From assembly GCF_009914755.1 (NCBI RefSeq), contig NC_060941.1: a stretch of 64,000 bases of DNA. One strand, 5' to 3'. A model generated the notes under the pieces. The model did not search any database, was not told the DNA's origin, and saw only the letters and a list, made by a program, of their open reading frames with translations. How positions within the stretch are numbered: position 1 is the stretch's first letter; each line of letters begins with the position of its first letter. Position numbers and translations under genes: made by a program. The DNA is from the human T2T-CHM13v2.0 reference genome, Homo sapiens. Of this stretch, positions 19,715 to 23,949 are shown piece by piece.

Positions 19715-20215
19715 TGTTTTCTGAGGGCAGCACCAGCACCCATTCACCCACTTCCAGCAGCAGAGCCTGATTTTGCCTCTAGACCTCTCCCTGTCCCCCT
19801 CAGTCCTTGTCATCTAGGTTAAACTGGCTACACCCTCAGCCTGGTGTGAGCCAGGCCCTGCCAATCCATCACCTTGCCTGGTGACTGAGATGGACTCGGG
19901 AGTGGACATCCGACCAAAGGCAGGCCAGTTAGTCAAGAGACTCTTGGATTTTTGTGGAAGCCATTAGGTAAGTGGGGTCTTTGCTGGTTGGATTTAAGTC
20001 TGGGAGGATGAAGGACAGCACTGTTGCAGCCGTTTTGCCACAATGAGGGGAGGGCCTTTGGGAGGATAAAGCCCAGCATAGAAGAGAGCAAAGCCTGAGG
20101 CCTGCGGCATCTATGCCTGAATCCAGCTGTGCCTGAAGGTAGCGCTGTAGCTCAGGTTTCCAGTTACAAGAACCCATTCAACCTTTCTGCCTTAGCCTGG
20201 TTAGTATTGTGGTCC
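19715..20215 (+). mobile_element. MaLR LTR (MLT1J/K-like)
   Basis: Consensus-like motifs (ccattcacccacttcc...ctgattttg, ccagctgtgcctgaag, cagttacaagaaccc); continuous across 19801. Confidence 0.55.
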
Positions 20216-20291
20216 CACTGAACGTACCATTCAGGAGAATCACGTTTAAAAGTGGCACAAGACAAAGACATGAATCTGAATACCTTCAGAC
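19801..20291 (+). repeat. Inverted duplication, left (donor) arm
   Basis: Reverse complement of 22962-23779 minus its Alu; near-identical ORFs 19929..20177(-) and 23076..23348(+). Confidence 0.97.
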
Positions 20292-21299
20292 ATAGTCTAC
20301 AGCTCCCCCTGGTGGAAAACATTGTTTTTTAGAGTCCAGCTACTAGGCCTTAATTTTTATCCACCACGTGTCCCAATAGTCTGTATATATCTAGGTCAAT
20401 TTAGAACATCTTTTCTAGTTCAAAAAGCATGTAATTGCTGCTATTTATAATCCTGATCACAGCCCATTCCGGTAATACTTTGTAATTCAGAACTATAATC
20501 CCCAACGAAACATGTCCCAGAATCAAGCAGTGAATGTAGAATGTGCTAGATCATTAGGACTCTTTTTTTTTTCTTTTTGAGATAGGGTCTCGCTCTATTG
20601 CTCAGGCTGGAGTGCAGTGGTGTGATCAGGTTCACTGCCGTCTCGACCTCCTGGGTTCAATGATCCTCCCGCCTTGGCTTCCCAAAATGCTGGTGATTAC
20701 AGGCAGGAACCACTGTGCCCAGCCAGGAATCAATGTTTATAATTATCAAAAAAGAGACAAGAAGAAAGGAGGAAACACAAAACCATAATGCGGAAGAATG
20801 TTAAAATCCGGTCAAGTATAACTTCATTGATTTCTGGTTTCAAGGATTGTACCCCACAATTGTCTCTTTTCTCCCCACACGTCATGGAAATGATCAGAAA
20901 GAAGTAATTGTATGACAGTTTAAAAAATGAACTGTTCCGACCTGGAGCGGTGGCTCACGCCTGTAATCCCAGCACTTTGGGAGGCCGAGGTGGGTGATCA
21001 CCTGAGGTCAGGAGTTCGAGACCAGCCTGACCAACATGGTGAAACCTCGTCTCTACTGAAAAAAAAAAATGCAAAATTAGCCGGGCATGCTAGCGCATGG
21101 CGGAGGTTGCAGTGAGCCGAAATCGCGCTATTGCACTCGAGCATGGGTAACAAGAGCGAAACTCGGTCTCGGAAAAAAAAAAATCTGTTCCAGCAAATGA
21201 TAAAGCTGGAGAGAATGTTACTAACAGAACTGAAAATCTGAGGAATTTGAGGAAATGTGTTCTTCGCTGAGAGCAAAGTCACGCAGTGCTGAGCTGAGC

Positions 21300-21990
21300 A
21301 CCCAGCGCAAAGGAGGGGCTCCCTAAAGGAAGGTGGAAAGGTCTCCCCAGTAGAGCTCCGCCCAGCCCCAGCTCTAAGCAGCGGGCCCCGGGCATCAGGG
21401 TTTCAGGGCTGAGGAATGTCCAGCGCCGCCCGATCGCGCCTCGCTTCCTCCATCACTAAACCACCGGGGGACTGACTGCCCGAGGCTGGTGCAGAAGCGG
21501 GTGCGGAAGCGGGAGAGGGAACGCGCGTGGCGCTCCAGCCGCCACCCCAACCCTGCCACTTCCGCAGCTGCCCGGGCGCCGCTGCACCCGGACCACTCTG
21601 CGGTCTACCCGCTGCGGCCAGAAGAAGAGAGACTCCGGGGAGGGTGGCCTGCCGCACCCTGGCCTTCACAGAGCAGGGGGCGGAAGAGCCCAGGTGCCCT
21701 CGGTGCCTGCGCAACCTGAGCCCCGGCCGCCTCGCGCCTTATCCTTGGGGCTCCCCCTGGCGGCTAAGCCGGTCCCTGCAGGGAAACGTGCCCGTTGTCT
21801 CATCTGCATCCACTTAGCACCAAGACGGGGTAGCTGAGGGGGTCGGCGGAAGAGGAGAGGGGAGGCAGCAAAAGATGATCCATGCAGACGACCAGGGAGC
21901 CCACACCAGCCTCCAAGCGCGTCAGCCTCCAGCTCCACTCCCCAGGGTGAAGAGTCAACGGACAATCACCCCGAAGTAAGGCCCTACCGC
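21300..21990. promoter_or_regulatory. Orphan CpG island about 12 kb upstream of GUCY2D
   Basis: Non-repeat, CpG-dense; several ETS-type GCGGAAG/CTTCCGC motifs, a GC box, and a CTCF-like motif at 21750-21763. Confidence 0.8.
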
Positions 21991-22043
21991 CTCCTGAAAA
22001 AGGTGGTTAAAGAAGGGCAATCCGCTAAAGAATAGAGTACACG

Positions 22044-22358
22044 GGCCGGGCGCGGTGGCTAACGCCTGTAATCCCAGCACTTTGGGAGGCCGAGGCGGGC
22101 GGATCACGAGGTCAAGAGATCGAGAGCATCCTGGCGAACACGGTGAAACCCCGTCTCTACTAAAAATACAAAAAATGAGCCGGGCTTGGTGGCGGGCGCC
22201 TGTAGTCCCAGCTACTCGGGAGGCTGAGGCAGGAGAATGGCGTGAACCCGGGAGGCGGAGCTTGCAGTGAGCCGAGATAGCGCCACTGCACTCCAGCCTG
22301 GGCGGCAGAGCGAGACTCCGTCTCAAAAACAAAAAACAAACAAACAAACAAACAAACG
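22044..22358 (+). mobile_element. AluY, CpG-rich, with TSD GAATRGAGTACACG
   Basis: Full-length dimer, AluY diagnostics (GATCACGAGG, ATGGCGTGAACCC, GAGCTTGCAG). Confidence 0.9.
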
Positions 22359-22806
22359 GAATGGAGTACACGAATTATAAGTACAAGAATGTACTTAAAA
22401 TATTCAAATTAATACCCTCAATAACATTAATGCCAGAATCTTGCATTCACAATAAAAAACTTGGTGTCCAAAATGTGGTACATCCATGCAATGGAGTATT
22501 ATTCAGCCTCTAACAGGAATGAAATTCTTACACATGCTATAATGTGGGTGGACCCTGAAAACATTACCCTGAGTGAAATAAGCCAAATACGGAAGGACAA
22601 ATCCTGTATGATTCCACCTCTACGAGGTACTTAGAATAGGTAAATTCATACAGGAGAAAGTAGACTAGAGGGGCCGTCGTTGTTTAATGGGTACAGAGCT
22701 TTTGTTGGAGATGGTGAAGAGTTTCAGGTGTAGTGGTGATGGTTACACAAAAATTTTGGCTGTACTTAATGCCACTAAACTGTACACTTAAAAATGGCTA
22801 AAATGA

Positions 22807-22962
22807 GGCCGGGCGCGGTGGCTCACGGCTGTAATCCGAGCACTCTGGGAGGCCGAGGCGGGTGGATCACCTGAGGTCAGGAGTTCGAGACCAGCCTGGC
22901 CAATATGGAGAAACCCCGTCTCTACTAAAAATACAAAAATTAGCACGTGCCTGTAATCCCAG
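22807..22962 (+). mobile_element. 3'-truncated AluS (ends at CTGTAATCCCAG)
   Basis: Left arm plus start of right arm, then abrupt junction to the inverted-duplication arm. Confidence 0.9.
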
Positions 22963-23779
22963 TCTGAAGGTATTCAGATTCATGTCTTTGTCTTGTGCCA
23001 CTTTTAAACGTGATTCTCCTGAATGGTACGTTCAGTAGGACCACAATGCTAACCAGGCTAAGGCAGAAAGGTTGAATGGGTTCTTGTAACTGGAAACCTG
23101 AGCTACAGCGCTACCTTCAGGCACAGCTGGATTCAGGCATAGACGCCGCAGGCCTCAGGCTTTGCTCTCTTCTATGCTGGGCTTTATCCTCCCAAAGGCC
23201 CTCCCCTCATTGTGGCAAAACGGCTGCAACAGTGCTGTCCTTCATCCTCCCAGACTTAAATCCAACCAGCAAAGACCCCACTTACCTAATGGCTTCCACA
23301 AAAATCCAAGAATTGAGTCTCTTTTTATTTATTTATTTATTTTTTTGAGACGGAGTTTCACTCCTTTGTCCAGGCTGGAGTGCAATGGCAGGATCTTGGC
23401 TCACTGCAACCTCCGCCTCCCAGGTTCAAGGGATTCTCCCGCCTCAGCCTCCTGAGTAGCTGGGACTACAGGCACCCGCCACAATGCCCGGCTGATTTTT
23501 TGTATTTTTAGTAGAGATGGAGTTTCACCATGTTGACCAGGCTGGTCTTGAACTTCTGGCCTCAGGTGATCCACCCGCCTAGGCCTCCCGAAGTGCTGGG
23601 ATTACAGGTATGAGCCACTGCACCCGGCCAAGAATTGAGTCTCTTGACTAACTGGCCTGCTTTTGGTCGGATGTCCACTCCCGAGCCCATCACAGTCACC
23701 AGGCAAGGTGATGGATTGGCAGGGCCTGGCTCACACCAGGCTGAGGGTGTAGCCAGTTTAACCTAGATGACAAGGACTG
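22962..23779 (-). repeat. Inverted duplication, right (derived) arm, interrupted by Alu 23324-23629
   Basis: 6 substitutions + one 5-bp indel versus the left arm; Alu flanked by TSD AAGAATTGAGTCTCTT (23308-23323, 23630-23645). Confidence 0.97.
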
Positions 23780-23949
23780 TAGCTGGGACTACAGGTGCAG
23801 GCCACCACGCCCGGCTAATTTTTTGTATTTTAGTAGAAATGGGATTTCACCATGTTGGCCAGGATGGTCTCGATCTCCTGACCTTGTGATCCACCCACTT
23901 CGGCCTCCCAAAGTGCTGGGATTACAGGCATGAGCCACTGCACCCAGCC
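23780..23949 (-). mobile_element. 3'-truncated AluSc-like (ends at CCTGTAGTCCCAGCTA)
   Basis: Minus-strand Alu starting abruptly at the other end of the duplication arm. Confidence 0.9.

What the first reader, a model, noticed from the sequence alone, without database searches (positions are those of the whole stretch)
19801..23949. 491-bp inverted duplication patched between two inverted Alus that are both cut at the same Alu position
Seen: 22962-23779 is an inverted copy of 19801-20291. It is flanked by a + Alu ending at ...CTGTAATCCCAG (22962) and a - Alu of another subfamily ending at ...CCTGTAGTCCCAGCTA (23780), i.e. within about 3 nt of the same consensus position, with 1-nt microhomology at each junction. 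Both Alu tails and whatever lay between them are gone. The MLT1 LTR runs continuously across 19801, marking the left arm as donor. Established: closely spaced inverted Alus form hairpins/cruciforms and are unstable. Inference: the Alu pair paired, was cut symmetrically, and was repaired by template switching that copied a segment from 2.7 kb away in reverse.
Basis: partly seen in the sequence, partly recalled or inferred. Interest (0 to 1): 0.8.

Follow-up and report, generated by a model that had tools for sequence, protein, structure and literature searches.

The report
Inverted copy patched between two cut Alus
A 491-base piece of human chromosome 17 was copied backwards into a gap where two facing Alu repeats lost their tails, a neat fossil of a known kind of DNA-break repair with no sign of function.

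Summary
Bases 19801-20291 recur inverted at 22962-23779, with 6 substitutions in 491.

The right copy is 818 bp long. It is split by a later full-length Alu (23323-23629) with a 15-bp target-site duplication, and it carries a 5-bp indel.

The right copy sits between a + Alu ending at position 170 of a window-derived Alu consensus and a - Alu of another lineage ending at position 173. Each junction has 1 nt of microhomology. Both Alus lack their 3' halves, A-tails and second target-site duplications. The right copy is therefore the derived one.

Best reading: one old complex event deleted both Alu tails and the DNA between them. The gap was filled by snap-back or template-switch synthesis from 2.67 kb away.

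That Alu-Alu pairing caused the symmetric cut is plausible but unproven. Chance alone gives about 3%, and the Alus were probably more than 100 nt apart.

New point: the Alu inside the right arm is old, with 6 of 23 CpGs intact. The arms are about 7 times less diverged than it is (Fisher p = 3.6e-4). The arms have probably been homogenised by gene conversion.

This is a member of known classes. Primate outgroups, which I could not reach, are decisive.

The parts
19801..20291 (+). Left arm (donor), 491 bp
   Evidence: blastn boundaries. Single-copy flanks on both sides. Only two copies in the genome.
20292..22961 (.). 2670-bp spacer between the arms. It holds two internally deleted Alus, a CpG-island-like stretch (about 21400-21800), a Y-type Alu (22044-22326), an L1-like 3' piece (to 22801) and the truncated + Alu.
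22807..22962 (+). 3'-truncated S-type Alu ('PLUS'), window-consensus positions 2-170, with a 13-nt internal deletion. Its last base, G at 22962, is shared with the arm.
   Evidence: Alignment. Junction. No second copy of its 5' flank within 18001-26000.
22962..23311 (-). Right arm, inner block, inverted copy of 19942-20291 (347/350 identical)
23308..23322 (.). Target-site duplication, copy 1 (15 bp). It includes the 5 bases absent from the left arm.
23323..23629 (-). Full-length S-type Alu with a patterned A-rich tail ('INS'), inserted into the right arm after the duplication. It is old: 6 of 23 consensus CpGs intact and 9 private non-CpG changes in 239 sites.
23630..23644 (.). Target-site duplication, copy 2 (identical 15 bp)
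23637..23779 (-). Right arm, outer block, inverted copy of 19801-19943 (140/143 identical)
23780..23949 (-). 3'-truncated Alu of the Y-like lineage ('MINUS'), window-consensus positions 2-173. G at 23779 could belong to it or to the arm.
   Evidence: No second copy of its 5' flank.

Best explanation
This is a mutational fossil, not a working element.

Inferred starting state: two Alus of different subfamilies lay tail to tail. The + Alu sat inside the 3' end of an L1-like repeat, and the - Alu lay further right.

The event: one complex rearrangement removed the 3' ~115 nt of each Alu, both A-tails, both 3' target-site duplications and everything between them. The gap was filled with a 491-nt copy of sequence lying 2.67 kb to the left, in reverse.

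Most likely route: a break or collapsed fork arose at the Alu pair. The left end was resected for more than 3 kb. Its 3' end, in the + Alu, folded back on its own single strand and primed at 20291. That site offers 1 nt of terminal pairing plus a 5-nt block a little upstream. About 491 nt were synthesised and the new strand unwound. It was then joined to the right end in the - Alu through 1 nt of microhomology. A replicative template switch (FoSTeS/MMBIR) would give the same product.

The symmetric endpoints: the near-identical Alu endpoints (170 and 173) fit processing of a fold-back in which the two Alus were paired. This link is inference.

Later history: an S-type Alu then inserted into the right arm by ordinary target-primed reverse transcription. 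Since then the two arms have been kept 98.8% alike by gene conversion.

What is shown: the anatomy, the junctions, the order of events, and the age conflict between the arms and the inserted Alu.

What is inferred: that it was a single event, the fold-back route, the role of Alu pairing, and gene conversion.
For: - Inverted copy and its borders.
- The genome holds only these two copies.
- Both flanking Alus end at consensus 170 and 173 and lack their 3' parts. Neither has a second target-site duplication within 18001-26000.
- The L1-like repeat interrupted by the + Alu lacks its last ~30-50 nt, which 7 of 9 paralogues keep. Sequence was therefore deleted.
- Junction 1 has a terminal G plus a 5-nt match, 7 of the last 12 nt in all. 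Junction 2 has 1 nt.
- Among 6 other 3'-truncated Alus of the window, none ends between consensus 160 and 180. They end at 126, 198, 64, 255, 101 and 112.
- In yeast, one break end folds back at an imperfect microhomology, polymerase delta copies a stretch, and the other end captures it by end joining, giving local inverted insertions (PMC11724301, passages).
- Inverted Alus 12 bp to 30 kb apart and up to 25% diverged interact in single-stranded DNA (PMC10164571, abstract). Fold-backs with long loops are processed by Rad1-Rad10 (PMC6103520, abstract).
- Deletions at inverted Alu pairs that remove part or all of one or both Alus are described in chimpanzee (PMC3215922, passages).
- The later Alu has an identical 15-bp duplication, an A-rich tail and full length.
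- Gene conversion: INS has 9 private non-CpG changes in 239 sites. The arms have 5 in 950 lineage-sites (Fisher p = 3.6e-4; p = 0.0038 if only 7 changes are counted). INS keeps 6 of 23 CpGs, while 7 of the 8 arm CpGs are intact in both arms (binomial 4e-5 to 2.6e-3).
- All 322 sequenced polymorphic human Alus were of the Y lineage and none was AluS (PMC4607524, abstract and passages). A recent S-type insertion is therefore unlikely.
Against: - No outgroup was available. The intact Alu pair, the single-step nature and the age are all unobserved.
- The coincidence of Alu endpoints has a chance probability of about 2.5-3.9%, and the locus was noticed after the fact.
- The 7-of-12 homology at junction 1 has a chance probability of 0.034.
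- The pair was probably more than 100 nt apart and only 85.6% alike in the retained part. For duplex DNA, a 52-bp spacer already abolished fork stalling in eukaryotic cells (PMC7999016, passage), and the hairpin type of Alu pair exclusion is placed at 0-100 bp (PMC3215922).
- The yeast fold-back insertions are 2-150 bp with a 41-nt loop. This case needs 491 nt and a 2.67-kb loop.
- The 6 arm differences show no significant clustering that would mark conversion tracts (3/143 against 3/350, p = 0.36).
- INS's 'private' changes were counted against a mixed consensus built from this window, not against a curated subfamily consensus.
Confidence: 0.5

Rival explanations
1. Same product, but Alu pairing played no part. 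An ordinary break or fork collapse removed the interval, the two ends happened to lie at nearly the same Alu position, and the filler was copied from nearby by template switching.
For: - The chance of endpoints within 3-5 nt is 2.5-3.9%. That is not small across the many Alu-flanked deletions in a genome.
- Both breakpoints lie in the right-monomer counterpart of the 26-bp Alu core that has been linked to rearrangement breakpoints (PMC1142316, passages). That this motif is the counterpart is recalled, not tested.
- The likely spacer of more than 100 nt and the 85.6% identity disfavour a hairpin in duplex DNA.
Against: - None of 6 other 3'-truncated Alus in the window ends near 170.
- Convergent orientation plus symmetric loss is what a processed fold-back predicts.
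- Divergent, spaced inverted Alus do interact in single-stranded DNA.
Confidence: 0.3
2. The event is young, as the 1.2% arm divergence would suggest. The Alu in the right arm only looks old. Either a decayed S-type source made a recent copy, or the donor carried the Alu and later lost it almost precisely.
For: - The arms differ at only 6 of 491 sites.
- The two target-site duplications are identical.
Against: - No AluS among 322 polymorphic human Alus.
- INS has lost 17 of 23 CpGs, like the other S-type Alus of the window.
- Loss from the left arm would need removal of the Alu, one duplication copy and 5 further bases, leaving no scar.
- Near-precise Alu loss is very rare. This point is recalled; no paper was read on it.
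Confidence: 0.07
3. The filler was a free DNA fragment, broken out or displaced, that was captured by end joining at the break. It was not copied by priming from a break end.
For: - The 1-nt junction microhomologies fit classical end joining.
- Capture of distant templated fragments at breaks is documented in yeast (PMC11724301).
Against: - The donor is intact and only 2.67 kb away on the same side.
- The reverse orientation is what fold-back priming predicts.
- The extra 5-nt match next to junction 1 fits priming.
Confidence: 0.08
4. Two separate events: first a deletion between the two Alus, then later an unrelated insertion of the inverted copy exactly at that junction.
For: Nothing specific. 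It cannot be excluded without outgroups.
Against: It needs a second break at the very same base pair. No bases from the first junction are left over at either border.
Confidence: 0.04
5. An inversion by staggered breaks, which leaves inverted duplications at both ends of the inverted segment. The 2670-bp spacer would then be inverted relative to the ancestor.
For: The layout arm - spacer - inverted arm is the layout that this model produces.
Against: Undoing the inversion puts two same-orientation Alus of different subfamilies, each already truncated at the same consensus position, at two places 2.7 kb apart. That is less parsimonious (reasoned).
Confidence: 0.02

Closest known systems
Alu pair exclusions: deletions at inverted Alu pairs (Cook et al. 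2011, PMC3215922; passages read)
   Same: Two oppositely oriented Alus. The sequence between them is lost, along with part of both Alus.
   Different: Here the gap carries a 491-bp inverted templated filler, and the two Alu endpoints are symmetric to within 3-5 nt. The pre-event state is not observed.
Fold-back templated inverted insertions at double-strand breaks in yeast (PMC11724301; passages read)
   Same: A local donor on the same side of the break, copied in reverse. There is an imperfect microhomology at the priming junction and 0-5 nt at the capture junction. The donor is kept.
   Different: Scale. The insert is 491 nt with a 2.67-kb loop, against 2-150 nt with a 41-nt loop. This is a primate germline event of unknown genetics.
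Replicative template switching (FoSTeS/MMBIR) that gives inverted duplications (listing and abstracts only: PMC8421209, PMC11293582)
   Same: Two junctions in cis, microhomology of about 1 nt, and a nearby inverted template.
   Different: This is a small event that replaces a deletion. It shows no copy-number gain beyond 491 bp.
Inverted Alus interacting in single-stranded DNA (PMC10164571 and PMC6103520; abstracts read)
   Same: Divergent, spaced inverted Alus anneal in resected DNA, and nucleases then process the fold-back.
   Different: The outcomes there are dicentric chromosomes and break-induced replication. Here it is a local patch.
Centre-break deletions of palindromes, and concerted evolution of palindrome arms (recalled; no paper read here)
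   Same: Symmetric loss of the centre of an inverted repeat. Arm-to-arm gene conversion keeps the arms alike.
   Different: The arms here are only 491 bp and one of them is split by an Alu. Conversion is inferred from one internal age marker, not from a comparison between species.

Membership tests
Deletion at an inverted Alu pair (Alu pair exclusion) | Two Alus in opposite orientation bound the junction | tested here: met
   A + Alu at 22807-22962 and a - Alu at 23780-23949.
Deletion at an inverted Alu pair (Alu pair exclusion) | Sequence between the Alus, and part of them, is lost | tested here: met
   Both Alus stop at consensus 170 and 173 and have no A-tail. Neither has a second target-site duplication. 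The L1-like 3' end is missing.
Deletion at an inverted Alu pair (Alu pair exclusion) | An orthologue in another species holds the intact pair | not testable with these tools
   No primate genomes are held. The window's genome 'has no relatives here'.
Hairpin type of Alu pair exclusion (spacer 0-100 bp) | The two Alus are closely spaced | tested here: inconclusive
   The missing L1-like end (~30-50 nt in 7 of 9 paralogues) plus two tails and two duplications suggests more than 100 nt. The true spacer is unknown.
Templated inverted insertion (fold-back, FoSTeS or MMBIR) | The insert is a copy of nearby sequence in reverse, and the donor is retained | tested here: met
Templated inverted insertion (fold-back, FoSTeS or MMBIR) | Short microhomology at both junctions | tested here: met
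   1 nt at each junction, plus a 5-nt block near junction 1.
Templated inverted insertion (fold-back, FoSTeS or MMBIR) | Deletion and insertion arose in one event | not testable with these tools
   Needs outgroups.
Alu retrotransposition (for the element 23323-23629) | Target-site duplication, A-rich tail and intact 3' end | tested here: met
   Identical 15-bp repeats, a 24-nt A-rich tail, and consensus positions 1-285 covered.
Inverted-repeat arms under concerted evolution | Arms more alike than their minimum age allows | tested here: met
   Non-CpG changes: 5/950 in the arms against 9/239 in the embedded Alu, p = 3.6e-4. CpG retention: 7 of 8 in the arms against 6 of 23 in the Alu.
Inverted-repeat arms under concerted evolution | Arms group by species, not by position, across species | not testable with these tools
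   No outgroups.
Alu-Alu homologous recombination deletion | A single chimeric Alu at the junction, from two Alus in the same orientation | tested here: not met
   The Alus are inverted, both keep their 5' parts, and no chimera is present.
   No paralogue was found. No repeat library was at hand, and old copies may be too diverged to find.

The most novel reading that the evidence does not exclude
The event left more than a scar. It created a 491-bp inverted repeat that has been kept homogeneous by arm-to-arm exchange for tens of millions of years. The repeat brackets a 2.67-kb segment with a CpG-island-like, apparently germline-unmethylated core about 12 kb upstream of GUCY2D. If exchange includes crossovers, this segment flips recurrently in primates and perhaps among people, and it would be a small natural inversion toggle. 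Its origin would then be a rare datable example of a processed Alu-Alu fold-back repaired by kilobase-range snap-back synthesis in the primate germline.
Probability: 0.12. Interest if true: 0.6.

Novelty: new member of a known kind. Interest (0 to 1): 0.38.

Why it matters
- Clean, base-resolved germline examples help link yeast models of inverted-repeat instability to real primate genome history. This locus has an inverted Alu pair that lost a symmetric centre and was patched with an inverted local copy.
- It shows that arm identity can badly under-date a small inverted duplication. The embedded Alu gives an internal clock that disagrees with the arms about 7-fold.
- No gene or annotated element is touched, so no effect on the organism is expected.

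Tried and rejected
- **Paralogues of the left locus, to test the MLT1 claim and the donor direction.**
  - Genome DNA search with the arm found only the two arms.
  - Genome DNA search with 19703-20558 gave 2 candidates.
  - A 24-nt pattern with up to 3 mismatches gave 5 hits. Two were the arms, and the other 3 shared nothing beyond Alus in blastn.
  - Two 28-nt patterns spanning the arm borders gave 1 hit each, the locus itself.
  - nhmmer within the window found no other copy.
  - The same DNA tool found 3352 candidates for the L1-like piece. It can therefore see 69-80% paralogues, but an old LTR may be beyond it.
- **A paralogous copy of the right flank that might keep the ancestral state.** Bases 23950-24357 are single-copy.
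- **Other checks on the region.**
  - Rfam over 19000-24600 gave no match.
  - Open frames in the arm and in the CpG-rich stretch were nothing beyond short stop-to-stop frames. Selection on a coding sequence is therefore not an evident reason for arm similarity.
  - A paper search for this locus (GUCY2D, CNTROB, inversion) gave 0 papers.
- **Rejected models.**
  - Right arm as the original: its borders would need two separate Alu 3' deletions ending exactly at the duplication borders.
  - Alu-Alu homologous recombination: there is no chimera.
  - Staggered-break inversion: it needs two Alus already truncated at the same position.
  - A third template switch as the source of the inner Alu: the switch points would have to fall exactly at the Alu head and the tail end and mimic a 15-bp duplication.
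Full report
**1. What is there**

- The repeat finder on 19000-24600 and blastn show that 19801-20291 (491 bp) recurs in reverse as two blocks.
- The inner block is 22962-23311, with 347/350 identical to 19942-20291.
- The outer block is 23637-23779, with 140/143 identical to 19801-19943.
- The six substitutions are at 19888, 19894, 19919, 20109, 20205 and 20216. 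One of them is of CpG type.
- A search of the whole assembly finds only these two copies. nhmmer finds no other copy in the window.

**2. Why the right copy is 818 bp**

- Between the two blocks lies a full-length minus-strand Alu with an A-rich tail (23323-23629).
- It is flanked by identical 15-bp direct repeats (23308-23322 and 23630-23644).
- The repeats are made of arm sequence plus 5 bases that the left arm lacks.
- This is an ordinary retrotransposition into the right arm after the duplication.

**3. The borders**

- I aligned 40 full-length Alus of the window and took their majority consensus as a ruler.
- On that ruler the + Alu (22807-22962) covers positions 1-170. It has a 13-nt internal deletion.
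- The - Alu (23780-23949) covers positions 2-173.
- Each junction shares one base, G at 22962 and G at 23779.
- At junction 1, 7 of the last 12 Alu bases also match the donor's flank, including a 5-nt run. Chance gives that 3.4% of the time.
- The two Alus are 85.6% identical (131/153) and belong to different lineages. The - Alu shares a 2-nt deletion and two substitutions with 11 of 40 window Alus, including the Y-type copy at 22044-22326. Subfamily names are recalled labels, because no curated library was at hand.

**4. Which copy is the original**

- Both borders of the right copy are Alu bodies without a 3' half, an A-tail or a second target-site duplication. No second copy of either 5' flank lies within 18001-26000.
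- Retrotransposition always delivers the 3' end, so these borders are rearrangement junctions and the right copy is the derived one.
- The high-copy L1-like repeat that the + Alu interrupts gave 3352 candidates in the genome. It normally continues ~30-50 nt to an A-rich end in 7 of 9 paralogues examined. Of the other two, one carries an Alu at that point and one diverges.
- That end is absent from the window, so DNA was deleted.
The left locus 19703-20558 has no detectable paralogue.

**5. Mechanism**

- The simplest history is one complex event. Both Alu tails and the DNA between them were lost, and a 491-nt reverse copy from 2670 bp away was put in their place.
- The donor lies on the left. 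Its copy reads as the bottom strand, so the template was the top strand.
- That is what a resected left end would find if its 3' end snapped back on its own single strand at 20291.
- Yeast work documents this hybrid route. One end primes at an imperfect inverted microhomology, polymerase delta copies, the strand unwinds, and the other end captures it by end joining with 0-5 nt of microhomology. The inserts there are 2-150 bp with a 41-nt loop (PMC11724301, passages).
- A replicative template switch across a fork gives the same product, and sequence alone cannot separate the two.

**6. Did Alu pairing cause the break?**

For:
- The Alus are convergent, and the loss is symmetric (positions 170 and 173).
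- None of 6 other 3'-truncated Alus in the window ends between 160 and 180.
- Inverted Alus up to 30 kb apart and 25% diverged interact in single-stranded DNA. Fold-backs with long loops are cut by Rad1-Rad10 (abstracts of PMC10164571 and PMC6103520).
- Deletions removing part of both Alus of an inverted pair are described (PMC3215922, passages).

Against:
- Chance alone gives endpoints within 3-5 nt in 2.5-3.9% of cases, and the locus was selected for looking odd.
- The pair was probably more than 100 nt apart.
- In duplex DNA a 52-bp spacer already abolished fork stalling in eukaryotic cells (PMC7999016, passage).
- Both breakpoints lie in a motif whose left-monomer counterpart has been called rearrangement-prone (PMC1142316, passages). 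The correspondence between the two motifs is recalled.

I put the pairing link at roughly even odds.

**7. Age conflict**

- The inner Alu has lost 17 of 23 consensus CpGs, like the S-type Alu at 19432-19702, which has 6 of 23 intact.
- It also has 9 private non-CpG changes in 239 sites.
- The arms must be older than this Alu. Yet they differ at only 5 non-CpG sites in 475, which is 5 in 950 lineage-sites. They share 7 of the 8 CpGs present in either arm.
- Fisher's test gives p = 3.6e-4. It gives 0.0038 if only 7 changes are counted and 0.033 with 5.
- The CpG contrast gives 4e-5 to 2.6e-3.
- A recent S-type insertion is unlikely, because 0 of 322 polymorphic human Alus were AluS (PMC4607524).
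- The arms have therefore most likely been homogenised by gene conversion, and their 1.2% divergence does not date the event.
- The 5-bp indel sits at the edge of the homology next to the Alu, where conversion tracts would rarely reach. That last point is inference.
- Selection on both copies is a weak alternative, since no open frame or RNA family was found.

**8. Verdict**

The patch by reverse copying at a lost Alu-Alu centre stands. The hairpin cause and 'closely spaced' remain unproven.
- The structure belongs to known classes: inverted Alu pair deletion, templated inverted insertion, and concerted evolution of arms.
- No paper on this locus was found with the terms GUCY2D, CNTROB and inversion.

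Noticed in passing
window 21400-21800 (context 20941-22962): A CpG-island-like stretch (GC 0.70-0.71, CpG observed/expected 0.63-0.86) lies inside the spacer between the arms. The neighbouring Y-type Alu 22044-22326 keeps 20 of 23 consensus CpGs despite 6 private non-CpG changes. The truncated + Alu keeps 8 of 11. This looks like a germline-unmethylated domain. There is no RefSeq gene, no convincing open frame and no Rfam match.
   Followed up: partly
window 22807-22962 and 23323-23629: The truncated + Alu and the Alu that later entered the right arm now form a fresh convergent inverted Alu pair. They are 84-87% alike, with 360 bp between the two elements. They pair with each other in the predicted single-strand fold.
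   Followed up: partly
window 20577-20724 and 20941-21170: The spacer holds two more damaged Alus. In one, consensus 157-285 is joined to 2-86. In the other, 4-155 is joined to 213-283. The border of the second deletion, near position 155, lies close to the 13-nt deletion of the + Alu and to the 170/173 breakpoints.
   Followed up: no
window 22480-22801: A high-copy L1-like 3' piece (3352 candidates, 69-80% identity to paralogues) is cut ~30-50 nt before its usual A-rich end. In one paralogue (L021) an unrelated Alu sits at nearly the same point.
   Followed up: partly
window 24358-24700: A mid-copy repeat begins about 410 bp right of the - Alu, with 1903 candidates at 81-89% identity. The matches come in two pieces, 24358-24456 and 24457-24690, which lie further apart in other copies. 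The family was not named.
   Followed up: no
window 19960-19975: The left arm, and its copy, contain a strong-looking splice-donor-like motif (AG followed by GTAAGT). No exon is annotated there and no open frame supports one.
   Followed up: no
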